Shown: piece by piece, positions 39,575 to 61,322 of the stretch
Numbering within the stretch: the stretch's first letter is position 1
Layout of the letters: each line of letters starts with the position of its first letter
Origin: Deltaproteobacteria bacterium
GTDB taxonomy: Bacteria > Desulfobacterota > JBBIRW01
DNA length: 64,000 nucleotides
Direction of reading: 5' to 3'
Assembly (NCBI GenBank): GCA_037441565.1
Contig: JBBIRW010000003.1
Location: 12,953-76,952 of the forward strand
The notes under the pieces: model-generated
Database searches by the model: none
What the model was told of the DNA's origin: nothing
The model's input: the letters and a program-made list of their open reading frames with translations, nothing else
Translations under genes and position numbers: made by a program

Positions 39575-40720
39575 TTAAACCTTAAATCTGAGAAGGGCAC
39601 CTATTTGAATGGGTTTATCGTTGTAATAGAAATCATAGTGGATCTCTTTTAGTTCACTCCCTGTGCTTATAGAGAGATTTACTGCATCATCAACAATATT
39701 TTCCCTCTCCTCCATCTCCTTTCTGCAGTAGGGGCATGCCTCCTGCCTCCACCAGATATAACCGCACTCCCTGCATATGGCACCCTTTTCCCTGTAGCCT
39801 TCACGCACGATGAGCAAGCGAACAGCCCCCTTCTGTATTGCGAAGAGCGTATTATCAAGTCCAAAACAACCAGGTCCCTTTGAGGAAACCTCTTTAAAAA
39901 TCTCATCCATAAGCCTTTTCTCTTCCGCCTTTCTTATCTCCTCCTCCACCGATCTCATGACCTCCTGCACCTGGGATACAGGTGCATTGATAGCCATATC
40001 CAGCCTTGCTGCAATCCGGCTTTTCAGGTTATTTGGAAGATGAAGCTCAAATTTGCTGATGAGTTTCTGATTCCCTCCAATGATCATATATTCAATATCC
40101 CGAATTTTGAAGAATTCAGAGACTGCATCACCAACCCTTTTAAGGTATCTCTGCAGGTGATCCTCTATGTGTCTCTCAATTCGTCTTTCCGCAAGTCCAT
40201 ACCATCCCGCCATCTTTACCTTTGATGGAACATCACTTAGCATGTGTGACTCTTCACTTATAATACCCATGTAGTAGTGGAATATACGGGATGCATCCCT
40301 GTCAAGGATTACCATCCCGAATCTATGATACCCATCCATCAGAAACATAAGCGGTTTAATAAAAGGCCTGCTATCAACAATCATCATATTTCTTACAGGT
40401 ACTGGAAGGCAAATTAATTCCCAGAGTCCAGCATTGCGAGATGAGAAAAGAACGAGACCTTTTGTTCCTTTTCTCTCAAATTTCCGTGTTACAAAATTAA
40501 GGGTATCCTGAAGCTCTTTTTCAATAATTAATCTCTTTTCCCTTTCAACCTCGAGTCTTTCCATCTCTTCCTTTTTCTCCTTTATCAATCCTTTGAGCAC
40601 GATTTCATACTCCTTTTTTGGATACAATTTCCCATCGACATTGAGATAAAGACTCACCACAGGGAAGCCTTTTGTATCCATTGAGATGATCTCTTTTACT
40701 TTCTGCAAAACATTAATCAT
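39575..40720 (-). CDS. bacterial eRF1/Pelota-like (baeRF-type) protein with C-terminal zinc ribbon; GGQ motif absent
   Basis: Central domain (HRFGMVILDRDASRIFHYYMG) and C-terminal domain (GPGCFGLDNTLFAIQKGAVRLLIV) follow the eRF1/Dom34 domain 2-3 pattern. A CRECGY...CPYC insert forms a Zn ribbon. The GGQ-loop position reads MAGWYG, so peptidyl-tRNA hydrolysis is not expected. Confidence 0.6.
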   Translation of the reverse strand: MINVLQKVKEIISMDTKGFPVVSLYLNVDGKLYPKKEYEIVLKGLIKEKKEEMERLEVEREKRLIIEKELQDTLNFVTRKFERKGTKGLVLFSSRNAGLWELICLPVPVRNMMIVDSRPFIKPLMFLMDGYHRFGMVILDRDASRIFHYYMGIISEESHMLSDVPSKVKMAGWYGLAERRIERHIEDHLQRYLKRVGDAVSEFFKIRDIEYMIIGGNQKLISKFELHLPNNLKSRIAARLDMAINAPVSQVQEVMRSVEEEIRKAEEKRLMDEIFKEVSSKGPGCFGLDNTLFAIQKGAVRLLIVREGYREKGAICRECGYIWWRQEACPYCRKEMEERENIVDDAVNLSISTGSELKEIHYDFYYNDKPIQIGALLRFKV

Positions 40721-40730
40721 AAAAAACCCC

Positions 40731-41459
40731 CTATTTAGCTCTGCCGTGATATATTGAAAACATCTCTTTCATGCGGATGGCATCTTCAAACATCGAGATA
40801 TTATTAAACATGAAATATCCTTCCTTAAAATCCTCTGTCATCTCAATGAGCTTCTTCAGATCACTATAAGTGTATTTATATCTGTACCCATCCCTTCCAT
40901 GCAATCGTAGATAGAATATTGAGAAGCCTGGAGGTATTGTTCTGAAAGGGTCCAGGCATGGGACTAAATCAAGTTCCCTGCATATATGGAAGATCTGCTC
41001 ATTTTCCCAGTATCCCCTTGGTTCCCAAACACATATTATCCCCTTCCTTTCGATCTTTCTGAAAAATCCTTTTAAATTTCTTATGCTCTCATCTGATGGA
41101 ATGAATGATGAAGAGGTCTGAAAAACAACAATCCGTGATGAAAGGACTTCAGCAATTTTTCTTACAACCTCCCACGCTTCAAAAACCTCGTCAGTATTCT
41201 GAAAATTTCCATATCTCCCCTTCTTACCCTCATCAATCCTTCTCTTTAATCTCCTGTATGTTGGGCTTGTGGGAGAATGGGTAATGAGCTGCCAGGCCTT
41301 TACAGTAAATTCAAAACCCTCAGGAACATCCTTTCTCCATTTCTCAATAGTTGAAAGACAAGGTGGATCATAGAAGATCTGCTGAACCTCAACAACATCA
41401 AGATACCTCACATACTTTTCCCTTGATACGGAAAAGCCACAACATCCAACCCTTATCAT
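40731..41459 (-). CDS. DUF72 (YecE/UPF0759) family protein
   Basis: TIM-barrel-like DUF72 pattern: N-terminal ...IRVGCCGFS..., ...FEFTVKAWQ..., ...YLRLHGR.... Confidence 0.75.
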   Translation of the reverse strand: MIRVGCCGFSVSREKYVRYLDVVEVQQIFYDPPCLSTIEKWRKDVPEGFEFTVKAWQLITHSPTSPTYRRLKRRIDEGKKGRYGNFQNTDEVFEAWEVVRKIAEVLSSRIVVFQTSSSFIPSDESIRNLKGFFRKIERKGIICVWEPRGYWENEQIFHICRELDLVPCLDPFRTIPPGFSIFYLRLHGRDGYRYKYTYSDLKKLIEMTEDFKEGYFMFNNISMFEDAIRMKEMFSIYHGRAK

Positions 41460-41905
41460 AAATCTTTATTCCTGGAAATGTCCTTTATAATTACAGATGC
41501 CTTAAGAATGATATCCCTTTCACTATCATAGTTCATAATCTTCACAGCCTCCTCAATTGGAAACCACCTTACCTCCTCAACCTCAAAGTCGTGATCCTCA
41601 ACACTTCCAGATAGATATTCAAGGAGATAGAAATGAACAGTTTTATTGATCTTGCTTTCGCTCTCCCTATCATAAAACCAGTAGTTTATCTCGCCTATCT
41701 TATCCACAATCCTTCCATCAAGTCCTGTTTCCTCTTTTACCTCCCTTGCGGCTGTCTTTTCAAGATCCTCTGATTCCTCAACGATCCCCTTTGGTAAGCA
41801 CCAGATCCTGCCACCTCCTCTGCGTATAAGGGCAATAAATACCCTCTCTCCTTCACTCCTGTATATGACACCTCCGGATGAGACTTGCTTTATAATTCTC
41901 CCCAT
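41456..41905 (-). CDS. NUDIX hydrolase
   Basis: Nudix box GIVEESEDLEKTAAREVKEETGL (Gx5Ex7REUxEExGU), 149 aa. Confidence 0.88.
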   Translation of the reverse strand: MGRIIKQVSSGGVIYRSEGERVFIALIRRGGGRIWCLPKGIVEESEDLEKTAAREVKEETGLDGRIVDKIGEINYWFYDRESESKINKTVHFYLLEYLSGSVEDHDFEVEEVRWFPIEEAVKIMNYDSERDIILKASVIIKDISRNKDL

Positions 41906-42975
41906 AGCGAACTCCTGCCAAGCTCTCTTCCAGAGCTACATATCTTTAATGAGCCCAGCTGAAGAAATCTTACCCTTGCTGGAATCTTCAGTGGTGTAAG
42001 TATATGAAATACACATCTTCTTATATCAAATTTTATCAATATTCCAAGGGCAATTGTATTTAAATGCCTGTCACTCAGACCAACAAGGAGATTTTCGAAA
42101 TCCTCTATTTCGTAAATCTCTAATTCATTAACAGAAAAGACATCCTTTATTCTGAAAAGATTTTCCCTGCTATAACCTCCCCTCGTGATTATGGTCATCC
42201 TGTTTGTCTTTCTTTCCGCATAGAGCACAGATGTTTCGAGTTCCCTCGATAGGAAGGAAAGGTCACTACTTGTAACCCTCTTCCCAATCCCAATTGTTGC
42301 ACCTATTATGGATATATCCTCGATGGGAAACTCCAGTTCTGATGCCATGGAAAAATATTCTCCAAACATCTTCTCCCTGTATGCCTTTCTTGCCTCCCTT
42401 TCCCTCTGTTTCACTGCCCCAACCGGTTTTAACTCATAGATCCTTAAATCCTCCATCTTCCTGAAAGGGTTCAAGATAGGCTCAAGCTCTCCATCATCAA
42501 TCACAACTATGTTTTCCGGTTTAATTACATCTATTTTGTACAGTTTAAGCGTCCTTGCTGCCCTTCCATGGATAAGACCTGATGTGTCAACAATAGTGTA
42601 TTCACAGCCAAGATAAGCTGACCTCTCCATAAGTGCCTTTACACCAGCAATGATAGGAACAAAGAATCCAACAGGTGAGGTGGAACCTATGAATCTGGTT
42701 CCCACACATCTGATTTCATATCTACCTTCCTGCTTCTTTCTTGCAAGTCCTAATGCTATTGTTGTGGGAAGACCGATTGACTGTTGACCGACATCTGTAT
42801 CGAGCAAACTTACACGCTCGCCTCGCATTGTAAGTTCATCAACGATAAACCTTGAGAGTGTGCTCTTTCCTGAATCGGTTTTTCCGAGAATTACAGTTGG
42901 ACCCCTTCTCTTTCTTATTTCAGAAACAAGATCGACCCATTCGGGCGGGATCAGAATTTTATCTCTCCTTTCCAT
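41890..42975 (-). CDS. Clp1/Grc3-family P-loop polynucleotide 5'-hydroxyl kinase-like protein
   Basis: Walker A GKTDSGKSTL followed by the Clp1-diagnostic LDxDxGQ motif (LLDTDVGQQSIGLP) and a Walker B-like IVDTSG. Overall Clp1 N-/central-/C-domain proportions at about 360 aa. Confidence 0.65.
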   Translation of the reverse strand: MERRDKILIPPEWVDLVSEIRKRRGPTVILGKTDSGKSTLSRFIVDELTMRGERVSLLDTDVGQQSIGLPTTIALGLARKKQEGRYEIRCVGTRFIGSTSPVGFFVPIIAGVKALMERSAYLGCEYTIVDTSGLIHGRAARTLKLYKIDVIKPENIVVIDDGELEPILNPFRKMEDLRIYELKPVGAVKQREREARKAYREKMFGEYFSMASELEFPIEDISIIGATIGIGKRVTSSDLSFLSRELETSVLYAERKTNRMTIITRGGYSRENLFRIKDVFSVNELEIYEIEDFENLLVGLSDRHLNTIALGILIKFDIRRCVFHILTPLKIPARVRFLQLGSLKICSSGRELGRSSLWGEL

Positions 42976-42993
42976 TTTAACTCACCTGAAATC

Positions 42994-44091
42994 TCAATAG
43001 GCATCGGAAAGCAGGTGAACATTTCCGATTCTAACCCTTCTTAATCCCTCTTCGTGGGCAACCTCCATGCATCTCTCCGCATGTGATCTTGATGTCCTCG
43101 GAAGATCTGTAAGATAAAACTGAGGATAGAATCCAAGAAGGGAATAAGGGATCTCAGGGTCAATAGAAGAGATAAAGCGTGCTATGGATCTTACCTCTTT
43201 TTCATCCACATATCCCGGAACAAGTAGTGTGCTTGCAATAAGCAAAGGAGGTTCCCTTCTCTTTTTAACAAATGATGCTGCAAAACGAAAATTCTCCAGG
43301 GTCTGATCATTATATGTATTGCACAGTGCCATATGGAGATTCTTATCCCATGCCTTTAAATCAAACTTCACACAACCTCCGCTATTAAGTGCAATATTCA
43401 TGATCTCTTCGAGAAAATCCTCCTTCATGGAACCATTCGTCTCCCAGCAGATCCTCAATATCCTCTCCCTCTTTCTCTTCAATGCAATCCTTGATGCTTT
43501 TATAGAATGGATGATCTGGGATGAAGGATCCCCACCAAAATAGCACACGCAGCTCGTTCTCTCATCGATAGCATCAACCAGCTCCTCTGCAGATATACCC
43601 TTTCCCTTTATGTCCATCCTTCTGAAATGCCAGTTCTGACAGAAAAGGCAGTTGAATGTGCATGCGTGATAGAAAACAGCAAGATTTTTATAACCTATTT
43701 CGGGTCCTTTTTTATAACAGAACTCGGGATAACCCGAGCCAGTCCCTCCTGGACATACCCAGTCAGCAACACAGTTTGTTGGGAGCGGATCATGATAGTA
43801 GCTAAGATAGCCTTCTCCTCCTCCCCTGAGATAACCATCTTCAAACCTCCTTATGCCGCAAAAACCCCTTTCACCTTCCGGGATGATACATCTGTTGCCA
43901 CAAAAATCACATTCCTTACCGCCAACCTTTGGGATCTCCTCTCTTAACCCAAATCTCCTTCTGCTTTCTCTATGCAGTTCGAAAATATCTTCTCTAATAT
44001 CGAAAGAACCTCCCCTTATACAATCCGCACAATATCCAAGAATAGATGAAATGGTCAATGAACGATTTTTACAACTTTTACATCTGCCCAC
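42994..44091 (-). CDS. radical SAM enzyme, pyruvate-formate-lyase-activase-like (AmmeMemoRadiSam/PflX-type) with N-terminal CxxC-CxxC zinc ribbon
   Basis: Radical SAM cluster motif CTFNCLFCQNW (Cx3Cx2C), a preceding C..C...G..G.CG.R element as in the PFL-AE-like subgroup, and an N-terminal CKSC...CADC. Confidence 0.75.
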   Translation of the reverse strand: MGRCKSCKNRSLTISSILGYCADCIRGGSFDIREDIFELHRESRRRFGLREEIPKVGGKECDFCGNRCIIPEGERGFCGIRRFEDGYLRGGGEGYLSYYHDPLPTNCVADWVCPGGTGSGYPEFCYKKGPEIGYKNLAVFYHACTFNCLFCQNWHFRRMDIKGKGISAEELVDAIDERTSCVCYFGGDPSSQIIHSIKASRIALKRKRERILRICWETNGSMKEDFLEEIMNIALNSGGCVKFDLKAWDKNLHMALCNTYNDQTLENFRFAASFVKKRREPPLLIASTLLVPGYVDEKEVRSIARFISSIDPEIPYSLLGFYPQFYLTDLPRTSRSHAERCMEVAHEEGLRRVRIGNVHLLSDAY

Positions 44092-44099
44092 TTATTTCC

Positions 44100-45368
44100 C
44101 TAAAAAAGCTTCATCTGTCTGTCATCACTTATCGGGACATCCTTTCCATGCTCACCTTCGTCATCCCATGCAATGGAAACCTTACCGTAAATACCATCAT
44201 AACCAGGGATTACTTTTACACAACCCTCCCTTACCTTTATAACGCCGGAATATATTTTTTGTGGAAGAAGCTTTGAAAGTTCTTCAGGGGTAAGGTTCAG
44301 AAGTATATTAAATTCCGATCCACATTGGGAGACTATTTTTCTATATTCCTTCTCAACCCTTTCTGTTCCCACACCAACCCCTAATGCATCTGCAATGATT
44401 TCCTCAAGCGGAATCAGATGCTTCGCAGGAATCGCGCCTTCTGGAGTATAGCCCTCGGGTCTGTCAGCAAGCTCCTCGACCCTGTGCATAACACCTATGG
44501 TTAATGGAGAATTACATACTGGACACCTGTTATTATACTTTCTACTCTCAGCAGGAGAAAGGGAAACCCCACAATTCCTGTGACCATCGAAATGGTATTT
44601 ACCTTCCTGGGGAAAGAACTCAATTGTAAAACGAAACTTATCCCTGGATTTCGTCTTTAAGGACTCCACAATATCCCTGTATGTAAGGGGGCAATTGAAA
44701 ACATTTGCCTCCCTTCCAATTCTCGATGGTGAATGGGCATCTGAATTAGAGATCAGGGTAATATTATCAAGTGCTGACAGACGCCAGTTCATCTGTGGAT
44801 CTGAGGAAAGACCTGTCTCAATGACCCTTATCAGATCTGCCTGATCCTCAAATGCCTCCTCAATGGAATCAAAACCGGAGAATGAACCGAAGAGGGAAAA
44901 CCAGGGTGTCCATACATGTGCAGGGATGATCATTGCATCAGGAGAGATATCGTAAACCATCTTTACCAGATCCTTTACAGGAAATCCGAACACCGGTCTT
45001 CCATCTGATCCGATCTTACCCATTCGTGAAAGCAATGAATTAAGTTTTTCAGCAGCTTCAAAGGATGGAAGGAAGATGATGCAGTGAACTTTTCTGAGCC
45101 TTCCACCACTTGAAAAGATGTTGCTAACCTCTCCTGTGAGCATGAATTTTACCGATGGATCACCCTTCTTTAATGAGAATAGCCCATTTCCCTCAGGTTT
45201 GAGCTTTCCCATCAATTCTGCAAAGTATGTTGGATGGGTAAAATCACCTGTTCCAAGAAGGTTTATCCCCTTCAGCTTTGCCCATTTCGCCATATTCTCC
45301 ACATCCATATCCCTGCTCGTTGCCCTGCTATACTTCGAATGGACATGAAAATCCGCAATAATCCTCAT
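44100..45368 (-). CDS. endonuclease Q-like PHP-domain nuclease (TIGR00375-type) with C4 zinc finger
   Basis: PHP motifs (DFHVHSKYS; GTGD; PAHVWTPW; SNSDAHSP), a CPVC...C zinc finger and C-terminal VIPGYDGIYGKV. Length 422 aa fits EndoQ. Confidence 0.7.
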   Translation of the reverse strand: MRIIADFHVHSKYSRATSRDMDVENMAKWAKLKGINLLGTGDFTHPTYFAELMGKLKPEGNGLFSLKKGDPSVKFMLTGEVSNIFSSGGRLRKVHCIIFLPSFEAAEKLNSLLSRMGKIGSDGRPVFGFPVKDLVKMVYDISPDAMIIPAHVWTPWFSLFGSFSGFDSIEEAFEDQADLIRVIETGLSSDPQMNWRLSALDNITLISNSDAHSPSRIGREANVFNCPLTYRDIVESLKTKSRDKFRFTIEFFPQEGKYHFDGHRNCGVSLSPAESRKYNNRCPVCNSPLTIGVMHRVEELADRPEGYTPEGAIPAKHLIPLEEIIADALGVGVGTERVEKEYRKIVSQCGSEFNILLNLTPEELSKLLPQKIYSGVIKVREGCVKVIPGYDGIYGKVSIAWDDEGEHGKDVPISDDRQMKLF

Positions 45369-45407
45369 GAAAACCCCCTTTTGAACATTACATGTTTCCC
45401 TTTCTGG

Positions 45408-45662
45408 CTATTCAATAACCCTGTAGACAAGATCAGAAGGTCTTACCCTCTCACTGACCTTTATCCCCACGAGATCCCCCTCTGATGCTGTTTCTACATT
45501 CTGGTGTTCAATCTGCATGGACTCAACCCTCTGCACAAAGTCAGTGGTGTTTCCCTGAAAATGGAGGGAGTCCCCTAACCTTATAGAACCCTTTGTAATC
45601 TTTACTGCTGCAACCCCTATCTTTGCAAAATATTTAACAACCTCTCCAACCTTTTCTTCCAT
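45408..45662 (-). CDS. small EF-Tu-domain-II-like beta-barrel protein (hypothetical)
   Basis: 84 aa with the G.V..G.I..GD.L......V.S.......V..A..GD.VGI pattern typical of translation-GTPase domain 2 barrels. Lies between the EndoQ and PolX genes. Confidence 0.4.
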   Translation of the reverse strand: MEEKVGEVVKYFAKIGVAAVKITKGSIRLGDSLHFQGNTTDFVQRVESMQIEHQNVETASEGDLVGIKVSERVRPSDLVYRVIE

Positions 45663-45683
45663 AAAAACCTCCTGATTCAGGTT

Positions 45684-47402
45684 TTATCTCCCTCTCGAGG
45701 TCCTCTTAATAAGTTCATTAAGAGGGAGGGTATTCAATACATCATCCTTTGTCAGCCAGCCTCTCCTCGCTACAGCTATACCAAATTCCATCAGTTCAAG
45801 ATGATTTATAATATGTGCATCCGTATTTATACAAAGCTTTACCCCTAACTCTTTTGCCCTCCTTGAGAGGATATCATTTAAATCCATCCTCTGAGGGTAA
45901 GCATTTACCTCAAGCGAAATATCTCTCCTCTTTGCCTCTTTCATAATAAGGTCGAAGTCCAGCTCATAAGCCTCCCTTTCTCCAATAAGCCTTCCAGTGG
46001 GATGGGCTATGATATTTACATAGGGGTTAGACATGGCATTCAGGATCCTTTTTGTAAGAATCTCTTTTCCTGCCTTGAACCCATAATGGATCGATGCAAT
46101 AACTATATCAAGCTTCTTTAGAACCTCATCAGGTAGATCAAGTGATCCATCTCCGAGGATGTCAACCTCAATCCCTTTAAGTATCTTTATCTTTGATTTC
46201 TTATTGAGCCTTTCAATCTCCTCTATCTGGTCCATAACTTCCTCTGGTCCCATCCCCCTTGCAATCCCAAGGGATTTTGTGTGATCTGCTATCGCTATAT
46301 ACTCGTAACCCTTTTTTTCTGCATATCTGGCAATCTCCTCTATATCATGAGCACCATCACTCCATTTAGAGTGTATGTGGAGATCTCCTCTTATATCAGA
46401 TAGTTCAATAAGCTGAGGAAGTCTTCCTTCGGCTGCTGCCTCAATCTCCCCCTGGTCCTCCCTTAATTCCGGTGAAATCCATTTGAGTCCGAGCGCACTG
46501 TAAACCTCATCCTCCTCCTTTCCCGCGATCTTTTTCCCTGTTTTTTCATCAAAAACGCCATATTCACTTATTTTCAGGCCCAGCCTATCTGCTATCTGTC
46601 TTAGGTGTATATTATGATTCTTTGATCCTGTGAAATACTGAAGCGCTGCACCGAAACTTTCAGGTTCAACGACCCTCAGATCAACCTGAAGCCCATCATG
46701 GGTAAGCACGCTGGACTTTGTTGAACCCTTGGCAAGCACATCAGCGACATAGGGAAGAGAAACGAAATGATCCATAATCTTTTTTGGATCATGGGAAATT
46801 ATGAGTATATCCACATCCTTTATGGTTTCTTTCATCCTCCTTAAACTCCCCGCTATATTTAATCTCTTTACCTCTTTGAGCGAAAGTAGTGCCTTTTCAA
46901 ACTCCCTGGCAATGGGAAGAACCCTTCCAAGGGGCATCCTCTCCCTCCCCTTTTTATAAAGCTCTATACCCTTTCTGATATTCTCCTCGGTTTTTTCCCT
47001 TATCCCTGGAAGTTTACACAGCTTGTGACTTTTTGCAGCCTCCTCCAGTTCTTCTATAGTTTTTATCCCAAGGGATTCATATATAAGCTTTGCAGTCTTT
47101 GGTCCAAGACTGGGTATGGAGAGCATCTGCACAAGTCCTCTGGGTATCTCCTTTTTCAGCTTCTCATAATCCTCAAATGTCCCTCTTTCTATGATCTCAA
47201 CGATCTTCTGTGCGAGGTCTTTGCCTATACCCGGAATCTTTGTAAGCTCGCCCCTTTTGGAAATATCCTCTATATTCTCCGTAAGATTTTCTATATTCTG
47301 GGCTGCCTTCCGGTAGGCTCTGATTCTGAAAGGGTTTTCATCTTTGATTTCGAGGAGATCAGCAACATCGTTGAATATCCTTGCAATTTCCATGTTTCTC
47401 AT
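45684..47402 (-). CDS. DNA polymerase X (Pol-beta-like polymerase + C-terminal PHP 3'-5' exonuclease/AP endonuclease domain)
   Basis: N-terminal 8-kDa/HhH domain (IARIFNDVADLLEIKDENPFRIRAYRKAA), Pol-beta palm (GS.RR..E...D.DIL) and C-terminal PHP motifs (DLHIHSKWSDG, ADH). Confidence 0.92.
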   Translation of the reverse strand: MRNMEIARIFNDVADLLEIKDENPFRIRAYRKAAQNIENLTENIEDISKRGELTKIPGIGKDLAQKIVEIIERGTFEDYEKLKKEIPRGLVQMLSIPSLGPKTAKLIYESLGIKTIEELEEAAKSHKLCKLPGIREKTEENIRKGIELYKKGRERMPLGRVLPIAREFEKALLSLKEVKRLNIAGSLRRMKETIKDVDILIISHDPKKIMDHFVSLPYVADVLAKGSTKSSVLTHDGLQVDLRVVEPESFGAALQYFTGSKNHNIHLRQIADRLGLKISEYGVFDEKTGKKIAGKEEDEVYSALGLKWISPELREDQGEIEAAAEGRLPQLIELSDIRGDLHIHSKWSDGAHDIEEIARYAEKKGYEYIAIADHTKSLGIARGMGPEEVMDQIEEIERLNKKSKIKILKGIEVDILGDGSLDLPDEVLKKLDIVIASIHYGFKAGKEILTKRILNAMSNPYVNIIAHPTGRLIGEREAYELDFDLIMKEAKRRDISLEVNAYPQRMDLNDILSRRAKELGVKLCINTDAHIINHLELMEFGIAVARRGWLTKDDVLNTLPLNELIKRTSRGR

Positions 47403-47455: not shown

Positions 47456-48676
47456 CTAACAAACAGGAAATCTCCCATCTAAAAGCATCTCGCAGAATGA
47501 CCCTATACGGGAAAGTTCTTCATCGATTATATGCTCACAGCTTCTCGATATCTTTTTAAAACTCACCCGATCCTTCTTCAATATCTGTGCCGATGCGATC
47601 TTCGGCCGATCAATGGGAGAGCCGATCTGACTGCATAACCACACATATACCTCCCTTATTCCATCCACCTCCTTATATATCCTGTTTGCAATCTGGTGGG
47701 CAAGGATATTGTATATCTTTCCCACATGACTTACAGGATTTTTCCCAGCAGCTGCCTCTGCGCCCGTAGGCCTGTTCAGGGCAATTATCCCGTTTACCCT
47801 GTTCCCCCTCCCAACCTGACCTGAATCTGCATCCTCAGCTGAGGTCCCAAGGACGCTCAAATATACCCCTTCAACCCCCCTCCCTTTCCTGTCAAGGGTA
47901 TTGAAGTACAGGTTGGTATTTCTGAAGTAGCCTTTATTTGAAAGGGTAAAGTTTTTTATTTCCCTCATTACAACCCTCTTTCTCTCGAAATAATATGCCT
48001 CATTCTCGATAAATCTATCTATGAAAGGCATGGCAATGGTAAGGTGGATATCCCTCCCCTCCCTGAACCCCATAACTTTTACATCTTCACCCGTTTCAGG
48101 AAACTTGTTTTTGAACTCTGAAGAATTAAGGAATCTCTCGATCTCCAGAACAAGCTTTTCCGTTGGTGTAAGTGGCGCATAACCAATAGCAGCTGATGTA
48201 TCATTTGATCCATACAATCCCTTCCTGTCCTTTTTGAATATAGATGTAAGTTCCGATGATCCCGGCTTCAACTCAACTTGGTAACGGACATGCTCTTCAG
48301 GATCAACAAACCTCAAATTCTTTCTTATCCAGTCCTTTGCAGTTTCAACTGCAATCTCCTCCACTGCTATCACTTTTCCATCCACCCTGACCGTTGCCCT
48401 ATCACCTATGATAATCTTCATAGGCTCTATAACCCTTCCACCACCAAATCTTCTCTCCACACCACCTGCAACAAGAAGCCCCTTGTCTATGTTAAAATGG
48501 CATATACTCCCTGTGATCCGTAAATACTCGCGCGAAAGTGCCCTTGAGACCTCCTCCATTATGGAATCACATATGAAATCAGGATGACCAAGACCCTTGC
48601 GCTCAACTATCTCAACCTTCTGTTCTTCGATCGGGATTGACTTCAGCTCTTCCACAATTATCTTCCTTATACTCAT
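47456..48676 (-). CDS. archaeal-type S-adenosylmethionine synthetase (methionine adenosyltransferase, PF01941 class)
   Basis: ERKGLGHPDFICDSI, GYAPLTPTEKLVLEIERFLNS and GTSAEDADSGQVGRGNRVNGII...GKNPVSHVGKIYN are near-identical to archaeal MAT signatures. The start is trimmed to ATG 48676 (MSIRKIIVEE), which has a GGAGAGGGG RBS. Confidence 0.9.
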   Translation of the reverse strand: MSIRKIIVEELKSIPIEEQKVEIVERKGLGHPDFICDSIMEEVSRALSREYLRITGSICHFNIDKGLLVAGGVERRFGGGRVIEPMKIIIGDRATVRVDGKVIAVEEIAVETAKDWIRKNLRFVDPEEHVRYQVELKPGSSELTSIFKKDRKGLYGSNDTSAAIGYAPLTPTEKLVLEIERFLNSSEFKNKFPETGEDVKVMGFREGRDIHLTIAMPFIDRFIENEAYYFERKRVVMREIKNFTLSNKGYFRNTNLYFNTLDRKGRGVEGVYLSVLGTSAEDADSGQVGRGNRVNGIIALNRPTGAEAAAGKNPVSHVGKIYNILAHQIANRIYKEVDGIREVYVWLCSQIGSPIDRPKIASAQILKKDRVSFKKISRSCEHIIDEELSRIGSFCEMLLDGRFPVC

Positions 48677-48833
48677 CCTTCCCCTCTCCATTTTCCTTTT
48701 TTCTCTTCTGGATTGCCTGCTGGGCAATACACTCCCCATCCGTTGGATCACAACCCTTCTCTCTCAATTCACACCATCCATCCATGCTGTACTTGCAATA
48801 CATCTATTCCTTTTTACCACAAAAAGGGCTCGA

Positions 48834-58167: not shown

Positions 58168-59402
58168 ATCTTTGCACCAAGGGATGCCATCTTTTCCTCT
58201 ATCCTCTCATAGCCTCTGTCCAGATGATAAACCCTGAGGACTTCTGTTCTTCCTTCCGCAACAAGCCCTGCAAGTATAAGGCATGCACTTGCCCTCAAAT
58301 CCGTTGCCATAACAGGAGCCCCTGTAAGCTTTTCTACCCCTCTTACAATAGCACAGTTACCTTCAAGCTTTATATCAGCACCCATCCTTTTAAGTTCGCT
58401 TACATGCATGAATCTATTTTCAAAAATTGTTTCTCTGATCACACTTATACCCTTTGAGATACACATTAGCGCCATCATCTGCGCCTGCATATCAGTTGGA
58501 AATCCAGGATAGGGTGCTGTCTTTATATCAACACTCCTTATCTCATCTTTACCTATCACCCTTACCGCACGATCCTCCTCAACGATTTCAACACCACTTT
58601 CCTTCAGCTTATCGACAACTGCAGTCATAAAGTGAATGGGTGCATTTAAAATCCCTATATCACCTCCTGTGATTGCGGCTGCAACCATAAACGTCCCTGC
58701 CTCTATCCGATCGGGCATAACAGCATAATCAACAGGTTTGAGATCTGAAACTCCTTCAATCTCTATGGTTTCCTCTCCGGCCCCATCGATCCTTGCTCCC
58801 ATCCTCTGAAGTGCCTTTGCAAGTTCAAGAACTTCTGGTTCTTTTGCAGCATTGTTTATCACCGTCCTTCCTTCAGCAAGCACTGCGGCCATCATAATAT
58901 TTTCGGTTCCTGTAACTGTTGGAATGTCAAGATTTATGATGTTCCCTTTTAATTTCCTGCATGAAGCCTCTATATAGCCGTGCTTTATATCTATCTCAGC
59001 ACCAAGTGCCTGTAACCCCTTTAAATGAAGATCTACAGGTCTTGCCCCTATTGCGCAACCACCTGGAAGCGAAACACGTGCCCTCCCATACCTTGCAATA
59101 AGTGGACCAAGGACAAGAACAGAAGCCCTCATCGTCCTGACAAGATCATAAGGGGCTTCAAAATTTTTTATATTATGTGTGTCTATGATAAGGGTATCAT
59201 CCTTTCTTTCTATCTCAGCACCCAGATGGTTCAGAAGAACACACATGGTTTTTATGTCAACAAGATCAGGTATGTTTCTTAATATGTTTTTTCCACACGT
59301 AAGGAGTGTGCTTACCATCAGTGGAAGCGATGCATTTTTAGCACCGCTTATGCTAACATAACCCTTAAGAGGTTTCCCGCCCTCGATTATAATCCTATCC
59401 AT
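58146..59402 (-). CDS. murA: UDP-N-acetylglucosamine 1-carboxyvinyltransferase
   Basis: N-terminus [29 protein letters not shown] and EPSP-synthase fold. Active-site region ...[16 protein letters not shown]... with Cys. Confidence 0.93.
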
Positions 59403-60249
59403 CCGCCTTCCTGCTTACTATGTACCTTTCACTTCCCGAAAGGTCTTTGAATATCATGCAATCAATATAATTACAGCCCTTCAAAATTTCAAGGACAGAA
59501 GGTTCCTGACCTTCACCTATCTCCATCACCAGAAAACCCCCTTTTTGTATATAATGATGGGAATCCCTTGCAATTCTTCTTATTACATCAAGCCCATCCA
59601 AACCGCCATCGATAGCAATCCTCGGCTCATAATCCCTTACCTCCGGGCCCAGAAGGGGTATGTCACGGGATGGTATGTATGGAGGGTTTGAAACAATGAG
59701 ATCAAATTTCTCTCCGGGATCCAGTCCATCGAAGAGATCTGACTTTACAAATTCTATTCGGGACTCTACCCCATGCAGTATTGCATTCTTCCTTGCAACA
59801 CTAAGGGCATCATCAGAGATATCGGTAGCACATATCTTAAGCTCTGGAAAATATAGCGATAATGTTATAGCAATAACGCCACTTCCAGTTCCTATATCCA
59901 GCATATTTTTGATATTATTTAATGCAATGATATCCATCACCCTCTCAACGAGTGTTTCTGTCTCGGGCCTTGGAATCATCACTTTCTGTGATACAAGGAA
60001 TTCCCTCGAAAAGAACTCCTTCTTTCCTGTGATATAGGCAACAGGCTCCCTTTTCTTCCTCCTTTCGATAAACTTCATAAAATAATCGGTCCTATCCCGA
60101 TCGAGCATCTCGTTAAGAAGCAAAAAGAGCCCTTCCCTCCTGCATCCAAGGGCATGCCTCATCAGTATTTCAGCATCGAGATACGCTGTATCTATACCTT
60201 CTTCTGCGAGCATCCTGCCTGCAGAACAGATCAGCTCCGCAATCTTCAT
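59395..60249 (-). CDS. prmC: release factor glutamine N5-methyltransferase (HemK/PrmC)
   Basis: Class I SAM-binding site ([10 protein letters not shown]) and N-methyltransferase motif IVSNPPY. Confidence 0.9.
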
Positions 60250-61322
60250 GAATTCTCTCCCCCCATCACACTTCTCTTATTCGTAAGTGCAAGTGCATCG
60301 ATTATCTCATCAAGATCTCCATCGAGCACATCCTCCAGTTTATGGAGTGTTAATCCTATCCTGTGATCTGTAACCCTCCCCTGTGGAAAATTGTATGTCC
60401 TTATTCGCTCACTTCTGTCCCCTGTTCCAACCTGCTTTCTCCTCTCCTCCGATATCTGCTCCTCCTGCTCCCTCCTCCTCATATCGAGAAGCCTTGACCT
60501 GAGGATCTTCATCGCCTTCGCCCTGTTCTTATGCTGAGATTTTTCATCCTGACATACAACAGAGATTCCTGTAGGAAGGTGTGTTACTCTTACTGCGGAG
60601 TCCGTTGTATTTACACTCTGCCCACCAGGCCCTGATGCCCTGAAAACATCAATCCTTAGATCCTTCGGATCTATCCCAACCTCAACCTCCTCCGCTTCAG
60701 GAAGTATGGCAACTGTTACAGTTGATGTATGGATTCTTCCCTGTGATTCGGTAACAGGTATCCTCTGAACCCTGTGAACTCCCGATTCATATTTGAGCCT
60801 GCTGTAGGCACCCTTCCCCTCTATAAGGGCAATTATCTCTTTGAACCCGCCAAGTCCCGTTGGATGAGCACTCATTATTTCAACCTTCCACGATCTCTTC
60901 TCGGCATATTTCGAATACATCCTGAATAGATCAGAAACAAAGAGTGCTGCCTCCTCACCCCCAGCTCCTGCCCTTATCTCCAGAATAATATTCTTCTCAT
61001 CCCTTGGATCCTTCTCAATAAAATGACTTTCGAGCTCCCTCTTTATCCTTTCTTTCTCCTTTATCAACTCTTCGATCTCCTGTTCAGCAAGCTCCCTGAT
61101 CTCTGAATCATCTTCCTTCAAAAGCAGCCTGTTATTTTCGATCTCTTTGTTAATCTTCTTCAATTCAGCGTAAAGTTCAACAATCCTCTTTAACCTTGAA
61201 TGTTCCCGAAGGAGCTGCTGATACTCTTTTACATCCTTGATGAACTCATGATCTGAGAGTTTTTTCTCAAGTTGCCTGTATCTCTCCTCTATTTCTATTA
61301 GTCTATTTTCAAGGATTTCCAT
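60246..61322 (-). CDS. prfA: peptide chain release factor 1
   Basis: GGQ motif ([16 protein letters not shown]) and a PxT-type decoding region (...[12 protein letters not shown]...), 358 aa. Confidence 0.93.

What the first reader, a model, noticed from the sequence alone, without database searches (positions are those of the whole stretch)
39575..41459. eRF1/Pelota-like protein lacking GGQ, with inserted zinc ribbon, coupled to a DUF72 gene
The 381-aa protein shows eRF1/Dom34 domain-2 and domain-3 signatures (…MVILDRDASRIFHYY…; …GLDNTLFAIQKGAVRLLIV…). The segment that should carry the universally conserved GGQ loop instead reads KMAGWYGLAERR. A CRECGY…CPYC zinc ribbon is inserted in the C-terminal domain. 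That profile fits a Pelota-like ribosome-rescue or sensor role, or a conflict-system effector of the baeRF type, rather than a peptide-release enzyme. Only 10 nt separate it from a DUF72/YecE gene of unknown function upstream.
Basis: partly seen in the sequence, partly recalled or inferred. Interest (0 to 1): 0.6.

Follow-up and report, generated by a model that had tools for sequence, protein, structure and literature searches.

The report
Balon-like ribosome hibernation factor homolog
The gene encodes a bacterial copy of the archaeal/eukaryotic release-factor fold that has lost its stop-codon and peptide-release motifs. It most likely parks in the ribosome's A site as a Balon-type hibernation factor, and its closeness to the DUF72 gene is a coincidence of a tightly packed genome.

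Summary
The 381-aa ORF (39575-40720, minus strand) is a three-domain aeRF1-fold protein. AGW sits where GGQ should be. A CxxC...CxxC zinc ribbon lies in the C-terminal domain. A DUF72 gene ends 10 nt upstream.

This is a member of a known family, not a new kind of protein. It belongs to Pfam baeRF_family10. So does Msmeg1130, the Mycobacterium smegmatis Balon homolog, which is also its best match among solved structures by both sequence and fold. The most likely function is therefore a non-catalytic A-site ribosome hibernation factor.

The zinc ribbon is an ancestral aeRF1 feature, present in about 90% of relatives, and not a new insertion. The loop that replaces GGQ is not degenerate. It keeps the eRF1 loop length and reads (A/G)GW(Y/G)G(L/Y)EERRIERHIE across more than ten phyla, so Trp has replaced the catalytic Gln. 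That detail is uncharacterised and mildly interesting.

The DUF72 coupling fails in both directions. No divergent baeRF10 locus (0 of 56) carries DUF72, and no divergent DUF72 locus (0 of 8) carries a baeRF. DUF72 instead travels with the upstream radical-SAM and Endonuclease Q genes. No defence-system signal was found.

The parts
39575..40720 (-). Gene for the 381-aa baeRF family-10 / Balon-type aeRF1 homolog (stop codon 39575-39577)
   Evidence: ORF list; Pfam PF18854 at 93 bits; best PDB sequence hit is Balon Msmeg1130; AF2 pLDDT 92.7; Foldseek top 5 are all Balon structures
40367..40720 (-). N-terminal domain (res 1-118), equivalent to the aeRF1 decoding-centre domain but without the NIKS and YxCxxxF motifs
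   Evidence: In alignment A1 the classical aRF1-like sequences P0079 and P0081 carry SSNIKS and Y(Y/R)C..F where the window protein has KEKKEE and IVDSRPF
39962..40366 (-). Middle (RNase-H-fold) domain, res 119-253, matching baeRF_family10
   Evidence: Pfam stretch 119-253 against profile 1-136/143
40163..40228 (-). Loop and helix aligned to the GGQ loop (res 165-186: PSKVKMAGWYGLAERRIERHIE), with Trp173 at the Gln position
   Evidence: Gapless alignment to eRF1 GRGGQSAL. This is the most conserved segment of the subfamily (P165, V168, G172, W173, G175, E178, R180-E182, I185-E186). It is conserved across phyla. It is the lowest-pLDDT segment of the model (67-69), consistent with a flexible loop
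39578..39928 (-). C-terminal (Pelota/eRF1_3) domain, res 265-381
   Evidence: Pfam eRF1_3 at 28.5 bits, above the 25.8 cutoff; invariant C-terminal LRF motif
39725..39775 (-). Zinc ribbon C316-x2-C319 ... C329-x2-C332 inside the C-terminal domain
   Evidence: C316 and C329 invariant, C319 and C332 in >=90% of 79 homologs. Four Cys in 133 of 151 unbiased representatives. Same columns as the CxxC...CxxC of the aRF1-like P0079 and P0081. Msmeg1130 has a Cys-free insert at the same site
40721..40733 (-). DUF72 stop codon (TAG) and 10-nt spacer GGGGTTTTTT, with an SD-like AGGGG 6 nt before the ATG
   Evidence: Sequence read directly
40731..41459 (-). Adjacent DUF72 gene. It is physically next door but does not belong to the same functional unit; it belongs with the upstream rSAM/EndoQ cluster
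   Evidence: Pfam DUF72 at 102.5 bits; linkage tests

Best explanation
The gene encodes a non-catalytic, Balon-type ribosome hibernation factor of the bacterial aeRF1 clade (Pfam baeRF family 10).

Shown here:
- It has the full three-domain aeRF1 fold.
- It lacks both stop-codon-reading motifs (NIKS, YxCxxxF) and the catalytic GGQ.
- Its nearest relative with a solved structure, by sequence profile and by predicted fold, is Msmeg1130. The Balon paper (PMC10901736) showed by cryo-EM and pelleting that Msmeg1130 occupies the A site of 70S ribosomes.
- The bacterium has its own RF1 and PrmC, so this protein is not the release factor.

Inferred mechanism: under starvation or stress the protein enters the vacant A site independently of mRNA. 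The N domain contacts the decoding centre. The middle-domain tip, the conserved (A/G)GW-YGL-EERRIERHIE loop and helix, contacts 23S rRNA at or near the peptidyl-transferase centre. There the invariant Trp probably stacks on an rRNA base, as Balon's loop wraps A2602, and no peptide is released. The C domain, with its zinc ribbon, faces the factor-binding site and may hold EF-Tu. The ribosome is thereby silenced and protected until growth resumes.

The gene acts on its own. It has no conserved partner gene, and DUF72 is only a neighbour.
For: Pfam baeRF_family10 scores 93 bits against a 27.1 cutoff, and Msmeg1130 itself scores 124.8 bits on the same model. PDB phmmer: the top hit is 8v9j_z, Balon Msmeg1130, E=2.3e-12 over res 13-358. 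The family profile A3 gives 8v9j_z at 1.4e-28 full length, aRF1 4af1 at 2.2e-17, Rv2629 at 4.3e-12, Pelota at 2.7e-9 and P. urativorans Balon 8rd8_B at 2.3e-7. The AF2 model has pLDDT 92.7 and pTM 0.83. Foldseek ranks 1-5 are all ribosome-bound Balon structures (E 2.6e-25 to 5.7e-20, TM 0.59-0.68), ahead of aRF1/eRF1 (1e-19 and below, TM about 0.5) and Pelota (1e-9). NCBIfam ribosome-hibernation-factor models hit full length at 81.6, 66 and 37 bits. NIKS and GGQ are absent whereas the aRF1-like P0079 and P0081 keep them. Canonical prfA (534 bits) and prmC (282 bits) are in the window. Mechanistic background on Balon and Msmeg1130 comes from PMC10901736. Burroughs and Aravind had predicted that baeRF-1 proteins are non-catalytic A-site blockers (PMC6514570).
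Against: - All three NCBIfam hibernation-factor equivalog models score far below their cutoffs (81.6/480, 66/330, 37/320), and the aRF1 model scores about as well (85.4/234.7). The protein is therefore not an ortholog of any tested Balon.
- Identity to Msmeg1130 is only about 18%.
- The loop keeps the eRF1 length, and often both glycines, unlike Balon's 'lasso'.
- The C-domain insert is an intact zinc ribbon, not the Cys-free beta-loop that Balon uses for EF-Tu(GDP).
- There is no RaiA/HPF or stress gene beside it here or recurrently in 99 neighbours of homologs, whereas Balon genes are often in stress operons.
- Balon's HP motif and bL27 trap could not be located.
- There is no experimental datum for any member of this sub-clade.
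Confidence: 0.65

Rival explanations
1. It is a still-active, codon-independent peptidyl-tRNA hydrolase, that is an alternative release or rescue factor. The loop keeps the eRF1 length and, in many relatives, both glycines (GGW). Catalysis would come from the loop backbone, and Trp would merely replace the Gln side chain.
For: The loop aligns to eRF1 without gaps. GGW, GGF or GGY occurs in many members and the loop is under strong constraint. Burroughs and Aravind singled out family 10 as potentially catalytic. From my own knowledge, not tested here: in bacterial RFs the Gln side chain is partly dispensable for hydrolysis while the glycines are essential.
Against: The window protein has AGW, not GGW, and no Gln anywhere in the loop. 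The Gln that Burroughs and Aravind noted fits the GGW(S/A/E)Q and AGQ sub-types, not this one. Msmeg1130, in the same Pfam family, was shown to inhibit translation without releasing peptide (PMC10901736). A bulky indole is hard to fit where Gln positions a water molecule.
Confidence: 0.1
2. It is a Pelota/Dom34-like ribosome rescue factor. It recognises stalled or empty-A-site ribosomes and promotes subunit splitting or recruits other rescue factors, instead of storing ribosomes.
For: It belongs to the same superfamily, is non-catalytic, and binds independently of mRNA by loss of NIKS. Burroughs and Aravind proposed this as one option for baeRF-1. It lacks the stress-operon context typical of Balon.
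Against: Pelota matches are much weaker and cover only the middle and C domains (profile positions 178-307, E=2.7e-9; Foldseek 1e-9, TM 0.36). The N domain is aeRF1-like, not Pelota-like. From my own knowledge, bacteria lack ABCE1, the splitting partner. The nearest characterised homologs stabilise ribosomes and do not split them (PMC10901736).
Confidence: 0.12
3. It is a two-gene module with DUF72, or a conflict/defence effector. The baeRF protein would sense or attack ribosomes together with the DUF72 enzyme.
For: A 10-nt gap on the same strand with no terminator between the genes. The adjacency is kept in the two close relatives (93% and 76% identity).
Against: Those relatives are syntenic over more than 15 kb, so they add no information. 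0 of 56 divergent baeRF10 loci have DUF72 within 8 kb. 0 of 99 immediate neighbours are DUF72. 0 of 8 divergent DUF72 loci have a baeRF. The 10-nt gap is ordinary here, where the median is 8 nt. There is no PADLOC or PHROG hit.
Confidence: 0.03

Closest known systems
Msmeg1130 (MSMEG_1130), the Mycobacterium smegmatis Balon homolog; PDB 8v9j/8v9l; NCBIfam NF052288
   Same: Same Pfam family (baeRF_family10). Alignable over the full length. Three-domain aeRF1 fold. No NIKS and no GGQ. Similar length (375 against 381 aa). Best sequence and fold match.
   Different: About 18% identity, and far below the NCBIfam equivalog cutoff (81.6 against 480 bits). Msmeg1130 has ...ERAGQMREQ... in a loop with indels, where this protein has the canonical-length AGWYGL loop. 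Msmeg1130 has a Cys-free insert where this protein has a four-Cys zinc ribbon. Actinobacterial hypoxia-regulon context against a housekeeping context here.
Balon of Psychrobacter urativorans (PDB 8rd8/8rdv/8rdw; NCBIfam NF052287)
   Same: aeRF1-derived A-site protein lacking NIKS and GGQ. Foldseek E about 2e-20, TM about 0.6.
   Different: Only a distant profile match (2.3e-7). Balon's lasso loop, bL27 trap, HP motif and EF-Tu(GDP)-binding beta-loop could not be identified here. Balon is usually next to raiA.
Archaeal/eukaryotic release factor aRF1/eRF1 (TIGR03676; PDB 4af1, 3agk, 1dt9)
   Same: Domain order. Loop length at the catalytic tip. Zinc ribbon in the C-terminal domain at the same alignment columns. 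The C-domain passes the eRF1_3 Pfam threshold.
   Different: NIKS, YxCxxxF and GGQ are all absent. 85.4 bits against a 234.7 cutoff. The host is a bacterium with its own RF1 and PrmC.
Pelota/Dom34
   Same: Non-catalytic member of the same superfamily; related middle and C domains.
   Different: The N domain does not match. Much weaker sequence and fold scores. No known bacterial splitting partner.

Membership tests
Pfam PF18854 baeRF_family10 (Burroughs & Aravind 2019) | Middle domain scores above the family's gathering threshold | tested here: met
   93 bits against 27.1, res 119-253 on profile 1-136/143. All close homologs carry the same precomputed Pfam hit.
Pfam PF18854 baeRF_family10 (Burroughs & Aravind 2019) | Standard three-domain aeRF1 architecture (N domain, RNase-H-fold middle domain, Pelota-type C domain) | tested here: met
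   AF2 model at pLDDT 92.7. Full-length Foldseek alignments to Balon and aRF1.
Pfam PF18854 baeRF_family10 (Burroughs & Aravind 2019) | Well-conserved glutamine in the catalytic loop, noted by the authors for family 10 | tested here: not met
   The window loop KMAGWYGLAERR has no Gln. A Gln occurs in the sister sub-types GGW(S/A/E)Q and in Msmeg1130 (AGQ). This is a descriptive feature and not a membership criterion of the HMM.
Balon-type ribosome hibernation factors (Helena-Bueno et al. 2024) | aeRF1-like three-domain fold, 360-420 aa, bacterial | tested here: met
   381 aa. Foldseek top 5 are Balon structures. The closest genome is a Thermodesulfobacteriota MAG.
Balon-type ribosome hibernation factors (Helena-Bueno et al. 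2024) | Absence of the NIKS stop-codon motif | tested here: met
   Alignment A1: NIKS of P0079 and P0081 aligns to KEKKEE in the window protein.
Balon-type ribosome hibernation factors (Helena-Bueno et al. 2024) | Absence of the GGQ peptide-release motif | tested here: met
   AGW at the aligned position. There is no displaced GGQ.
Balon-type ribosome hibernation factors (Helena-Bueno et al. 2024) | N-domain 'HP motif' insertion that contacts A1492/A1913 | not testable with these tools
   The papers give no residue numbers. The P. urativorans Balon sequence could not be retrieved. A candidate equivalent (P-F-I-K-P-L against Msmeg1130 P-F-I-H-P-L) is only a guess.
Balon-type ribosome hibernation factors (Helena-Bueno et al. 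2024) | Lasso loop around A2602 and the bL27 trap in the middle domain | not testable with these tools
   This needs a ribosome-bound structure. The loop here is eRF1-length and differs in sequence from Msmeg1130's.
Balon-type ribosome hibernation factors (Helena-Bueno et al. 2024) | Distinct beta-loop in the C domain used to bind EF-Tu(GDP) | tested here: inconclusive
   At the site where Msmeg1130 has a Cys-free insert, this protein has a four-Cys zinc ribbon. Burroughs and Aravind regard the two-strand insert as a possibly degenerate zinc ribbon at the same site.
Balon-type ribosome hibernation factors (Helena-Bueno et al. 2024) | Binds the ribosomal A site and inhibits translation | not testable with these tools
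   Experimental.
NCBIfam hibernation-factor equivalogs NF052288 / NF052287 / NF052289 | Score above the curated equivalog cutoff | tested here: not met
   81.6/480, 66/330 and 37.1/320 bits.
Classical aRF1/eRF1 (TIGR03676) | NIKS, YxCxxxF and GGQ motifs, and score above cutoff | tested here: not met
   All three motifs are absent. 85.4 against 234.7 bits.
Pelota/Dom34 | Pelota-type N domain, with best similarity to Pelota over the full length | tested here: not met
   Profile hits to Pelota cover only positions 178-307. Foldseek TM 0.36, E 1e-9, ranked below 28 Balon and eRF1 entries.
Known anti-phage defence systems (PADLOC-DB 2.0) | Match to a defence-system protein model | tested here: not met
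   0 families for the baeRF10 protein and for DUF72. No PHROG hit for the baeRF10 protein.

The most novel reading that the evidence does not exclude
The zinc-ribbon-bearing (A/G)GW clade may not be just another Balon. It could be a mechanistically distinct, near-ancestral A-site factor. Its eRF1-length loop would reach into the peptidyl-transferase centre and plug it with an invariant Trp in place of the catalytic Gln. Its intact aRF1-type zinc-ribbon C domain would engage EF-Tu in the aRF1/aEF1-alpha manner (GTP form), not in Balon's EF-Tu(GDP) manner. That would make it a 'missing link' between release factors and hibernation factors.
Probability: 0.2. Interest if true: 0.55.

Novelty: new member of a known kind. 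Interest (0 to 1): 0.3.

Why it matters
Balon-type factors were recognised only in 2024, and three have been studied structurally. This protein shows that a large, phylum-spanning sub-clade of the same Pfam family keeps two aRF1-like traits, the zinc ribbon and the loop length, while fixing Trp where the catalytic Gln was. If studied, it could show how a release factor was converted into a ribosome-silencing factor, and whether all 'Balons' use EF-Tu in the same way. For annotation, such genes should not be called 'peptide chain release factor subunit 1', as several sources currently do. The negative result on DUF72 prevents a false operon inference. It also redirects attention to a better-supported linkage of DUF72 with a radical-SAM enzyme and Endonuclease Q.

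Tried and rejected
- The search for related loci with the broad alignment A1 failed because no stretch was conserved enough. I repeated it with the sub-clade alignment A2. That search was seeded on the GW...ERR and IERHIE peptides, so motif conservation in those 61 loci is partly by construction. I therefore re-measured it on 150 HMMER-selected representatives.
- The promoter and terminator scan around the genes was at background level (31 against 27.2 expected; 12 against 9.4), so it says nothing about operon structure.
This is weak evidence, and it covers only 64 kb of the genome.
- I tried to recover the other Balon sequences through a PDB phmmer search with Msmeg1130, in order to locate the HP motif. 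Msmeg1130 finds only itself, so the HP motif and bL27 trap stayed untestable.
- I considered IIGGNQ (res 213-218) as a displaced GGQ and rejected it. It is the structural strand-turn conserved as IIGG in the family, and its N and Q are not conserved.
- I considered a defence-island context and rejected it.
- The close relatives (L001-L005) were discarded as linkage evidence because the whole region of more than 15 kb is syntenic.
Full report
**1. The observation**

The ORF list shows a 381-aa ORF at 39575..40720 (minus strand). A 242-aa ORF at 40731..41459 lies directly upstream on the same strand. The 10 nt between them read GGGGTTTTTT. An SD-like AGGGG overlaps the DUF72 stop codon and ends 6 nt before the ATG.

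Pfam assigns the 381-aa protein to baeRF_family10 (93 bits, cutoff 27.1) and eRF1_3 (28.5 bits, cutoff 25.8). The upstream protein is DUF72 (102.5 bits). A gapless phmmer alignment to human eRF1 puts KMAGWYGL opposite GRGGQSAL, so the GGQ position reads AGW. The protein's only GG-x-Q string (IIGGNQ, res 213-218) is the structural IIGG strand of the middle domain, with non-conserved N and Q. It is not a displaced catalytic motif.

**2. What the protein is**

Against all PDB sequences the best hit is Msmeg1130, the 'ribosome hibernation factor Balon' of M. smegmatis (8v9j_z, E=2.3e-12, res 13-358), ahead of eRF1 (about 4e-10). A profile of 79 homologs (A3) sharpens the ranking:
- Msmeg1130: 1.4e-28, full length
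- aRF1 4af1: 2.2e-17
- Rv2629 Balon: 4.3e-12
- Pelota: 2.7e-9
- P. urativorans Balon: 2.3e-7

Msmeg1130 is itself a baeRF_family10 protein (124.8 bits), so the window protein shares a Pfam family with a factor whose ribosome-bound structure is solved. An AlphaFold2 model built on A3 is confident (pLDDT 92.7, pTM 0.83). The only soft segment is res 161-180, the loop aligned to GGQ. In Foldseek against the PDB, ranks 1-5 are all ribosome-bound Balon structures (E 2.6e-25 to 5.7e-20, TM 0.59-0.68). aRF1/eRF1 follow (1e-19 and below), and Pelota appears only at about 1e-9.

NCBIfam's three 'ribosome hibernation factor' equivalog models match full length but far below their cutoffs (81.6/480, 66/330, 37/320). 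The aRF1 model does about as well (85.4/234.7). The protein is therefore a family-level relative of the characterised Balons and not an ortholog of any of them.

**3. Motif anatomy**

In alignment A1 the two most distant hits (P0079, P0081) are classical aRF1-like proteins with SSNIKS, a YxCxxxF-type motif and GGQ. At those columns the window protein has KEKKEE, IVDSRPF and AGW. Both stop-codon reading and the catalytic Gln are therefore gone. The Balon paper lists these losses as characteristic of Balon, Msmeg1130 and Rv2629 (PMC10901736).

The loop is not degenerate. In the window's sub-clade, P165, V168, G172, W173, G175, E178, R180-I181-E182 and I185-E186 are invariant or nearly so. This makes the loop and helix the most conserved part of the protein.

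I then looked at 150 HMMER-selected representatives at 50% identity, a set not chosen by motif. The family has 2,845 such representatives at E<=1e-3 and 261 at E<=1e-30. About 117 of 151 sequences carry an aromatic residue (mostly Trp) right after the glycine(s). Only about one carries GGQ at the aligned site. Three sub-types appear:
- (A/G/S)GW(Y/G)G(L/Y)EERRIERHIE, with eRF1 loop length (the window type; many members read GGW)
- A shorter QGGW(S/A/E)Q type
- A DxG-DWDRD type

Burroughs and Aravind remarked that family 10 retains a conserved Gln (PMC6514570). That fits the GGWxQ type and Msmeg1130's AGQ, but not the window's type.

**4. The zinc ribbon**

C316 and C329 are invariant, and C319 and C332 are present in at least 90% of 79 homologs. 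Four cysteines occur in 133 of 151 representatives. The aRF1-like P0079 and P0081 have CxxC...CxxC in the same columns.

Burroughs and Aravind describe a zinc ribbon inserted in the Pelota-type C domain as a common feature of aeRF-1. They note that many baeRF-1 families have a two-strand, possibly degenerate version at the same site. Msmeg1130 has exactly such a Cys-free insert there. The zinc ribbon is therefore an ancestral trait that has been retained, and not a novel insertion. It is still a real difference from the characterised Balons. Their C-domain beta-loop forms the unusual EF-Tu(GDP) interface.

**5. The DUF72 'coupling'**

The two close relatives (93% and 76% identity) keep DUF72 next door. 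They are syntenic over the whole region from PolX to the patatin gene, so they carry no information. The linkage fails every other test:
- Among 56 divergent loci from at least ten phyla, none has DUF72, NUDIX, CLP1, the rSAM or EndoQ within 8 kb (tblastn, E<=1e-5).
- Neighbour clustering shows only lineage-specific synteny. Examples are MtnA, PNP and XerC in Atribacteria, and GalT, thymidine kinase and NupC in Deferribacteres.
- A Pfam scan of 99 immediate neighbours shows no DUF72 and no recurrent HPF.
- Among 8 divergent DUF72 orthologs (51-54% identity), none has a baeRF neighbour.

The DUF72 orthologs travel with other genes. An ortholog of the window's radical-SAM gene lies nearby in 6 of 8 loci. 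An ortholog of the window's MJ0043-like gene does so in 3 of 8, the small EFTU_D2-like protein in 2 of 8, and CLP1 in 1 of 8. The MJ0043-like protein is an Endonuclease Q homolog (5zb8, E=1.7e-53).

The 10-nt gap is ordinary in this window. The median same-strand gap is 8 nt, and 34 of 54 gaps are <=20 nt. DUF72 belongs with the genes upstream of it, and the baeRF10 gene is a stand-alone gene that happens to follow.

**6. Other readings**

PADLOC and PHROGs give no hit for the protein, and the neighbourhoods are housekeeping. The conflict-effector idea therefore has no support.

Canonical prfA (534 bits) and prmC (282 bits) lie at 59395-61322. This fits the statement that baeRF-1 never replaces RF1/2.

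A residual catalytic role cannot be excluded from sequence alone, because the loop length and often the two glycines are kept. I rate this at about 0.1. A Pelota-like rescue role (about 0.12) is disfavoured by the much weaker match, which is limited to the middle and C domains.

**7. Mechanism proposed**

Shown: the fold, the loss of decoding and catalytic motifs, the closest relationship to A-site hibernation factors, and the presence of a normal RF1.

Inferred: the protein binds the A site independently of mRNA during stress. The Trp loop and helix dock at or near the PTC without hydrolysis. The zinc-ribbon C domain sits at the factor-binding site, possibly with EF-Tu. The result is ribosome silencing and protection. 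Confidence is about 0.65.

**8. Novelty and interest**

The family (Pfam PF18854, 2019) and its function (Balon, 2024) are known, so this is a new member of a known kind. The uncharacterised detail is a widespread clade that retains the zinc ribbon and has Trp in place of Gln. I found no paper on a zinc-ribbon-bearing Balon. It could be an intermediate between release factors and Balon, which makes it modestly interesting. Overall interest is 0.3.

Noticed in passing
window 40731-47402 (-); loci L066-L068, L070, L072, L073: DUF72 is part of a recurrent cluster. An ortholog of the window's radical-SAM gene (42994-44091; AmmeMemoRadiSam-like, 53-58% identity) lies beside DUF72 in 6 of 8 divergent loci. 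An Endonuclease Q homolog (44100-45368; PDB 5zb8, E=1.7e-53) does so in 3 of 8, an 84-aa EFTU_D2-like protein (45408-45662) in 2 of 8, and CLP1_P kinase in 1 of 8. DUF488, DUF763 or Peptidase_M54 also appear in some. In the window, PolX (45684-47402) and a MutT-like NUDIX (41456-41905) join in. This looks like a DNA/RNA-repair cluster and gives DUF72 a testable context. No paper in the library mentions EndoQ together with DUF72.
   Followed up: partly
window 59395-61322 (-): Canonical bacterial release factor RF1 (prfA, 534 bits) and its GGQ methyltransferase PrmC (282 bits) sit 19 kb from the aeRF1-like gene, followed by thyX and rho.
   Followed up: yes
window 47456-48751 (-), with 44100-45368 and 41890-42975: Several archaeal-type genes are concentrated here in a bacterial (Thermodesulfobacteriota-like) genome. 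They are an archaeal-type methionine adenosyltransferase (NF003363, 662 bits; Pfam PF01941 in L001), EndoQ, a Clp1-type P-loop kinase and the aeRF1 homolog.
   Followed up: no
proteins P0020, P0021, P0219 (homologs): The GGQ-equivalent loop carries a roughly 35-residue insertion that duplicates the YGLAERRIERR loop-helix motif (…EYGLAERRIERRGRRSES…GVYGLAERKIERHIE).
   Followed up: no
loci L008, L009, L010, L012, L013, L019 (Deferribacteres, KSB1): The fourth zinc ligand of the zinc ribbon is replaced: CP(H/I/Y)D, or CTND in L009, instead of CPxC. These homologs therefore have three Cys plus an Asp.
   Followed up: no
loci L054, L056 (Desulfobacterales): These homologs have an expanded Gly/Ala-rich loop without the Trp (…VKQSMTAGAGGAVQAGLGDKRIERHIE) and only three Cys.
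   Followed up: no
PDB-wide: Msmeg1130 does not detect Rv2629 or P. urativorans Balon by pairwise phmmer at E<=0.01, whereas the window protein detects Msmeg1130 at 2e-12. The 'Balon family' is therefore extremely divergent, and this clade is closer to Msmeg1130 than the three characterised Balons are to one another.
   Followed up: partly
window 21260-64000: There is an almost unbroken run of about 45 minus-strand genes with strongly negative GC skew (-0.2 to -0.3) and very short or overlapping intergenic gaps. Adjacency alone is therefore weak evidence of operon membership anywhere in this window.
   Followed up: yes
homolog annotations: JGI and NCBI sources label many of these GGQ-less, NIKS-less bacterial proteins 'peptide chain release factor subunit 1' or 'peptide chain release factor 1'. 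This is probably a mis-annotation.
   Followed up: no
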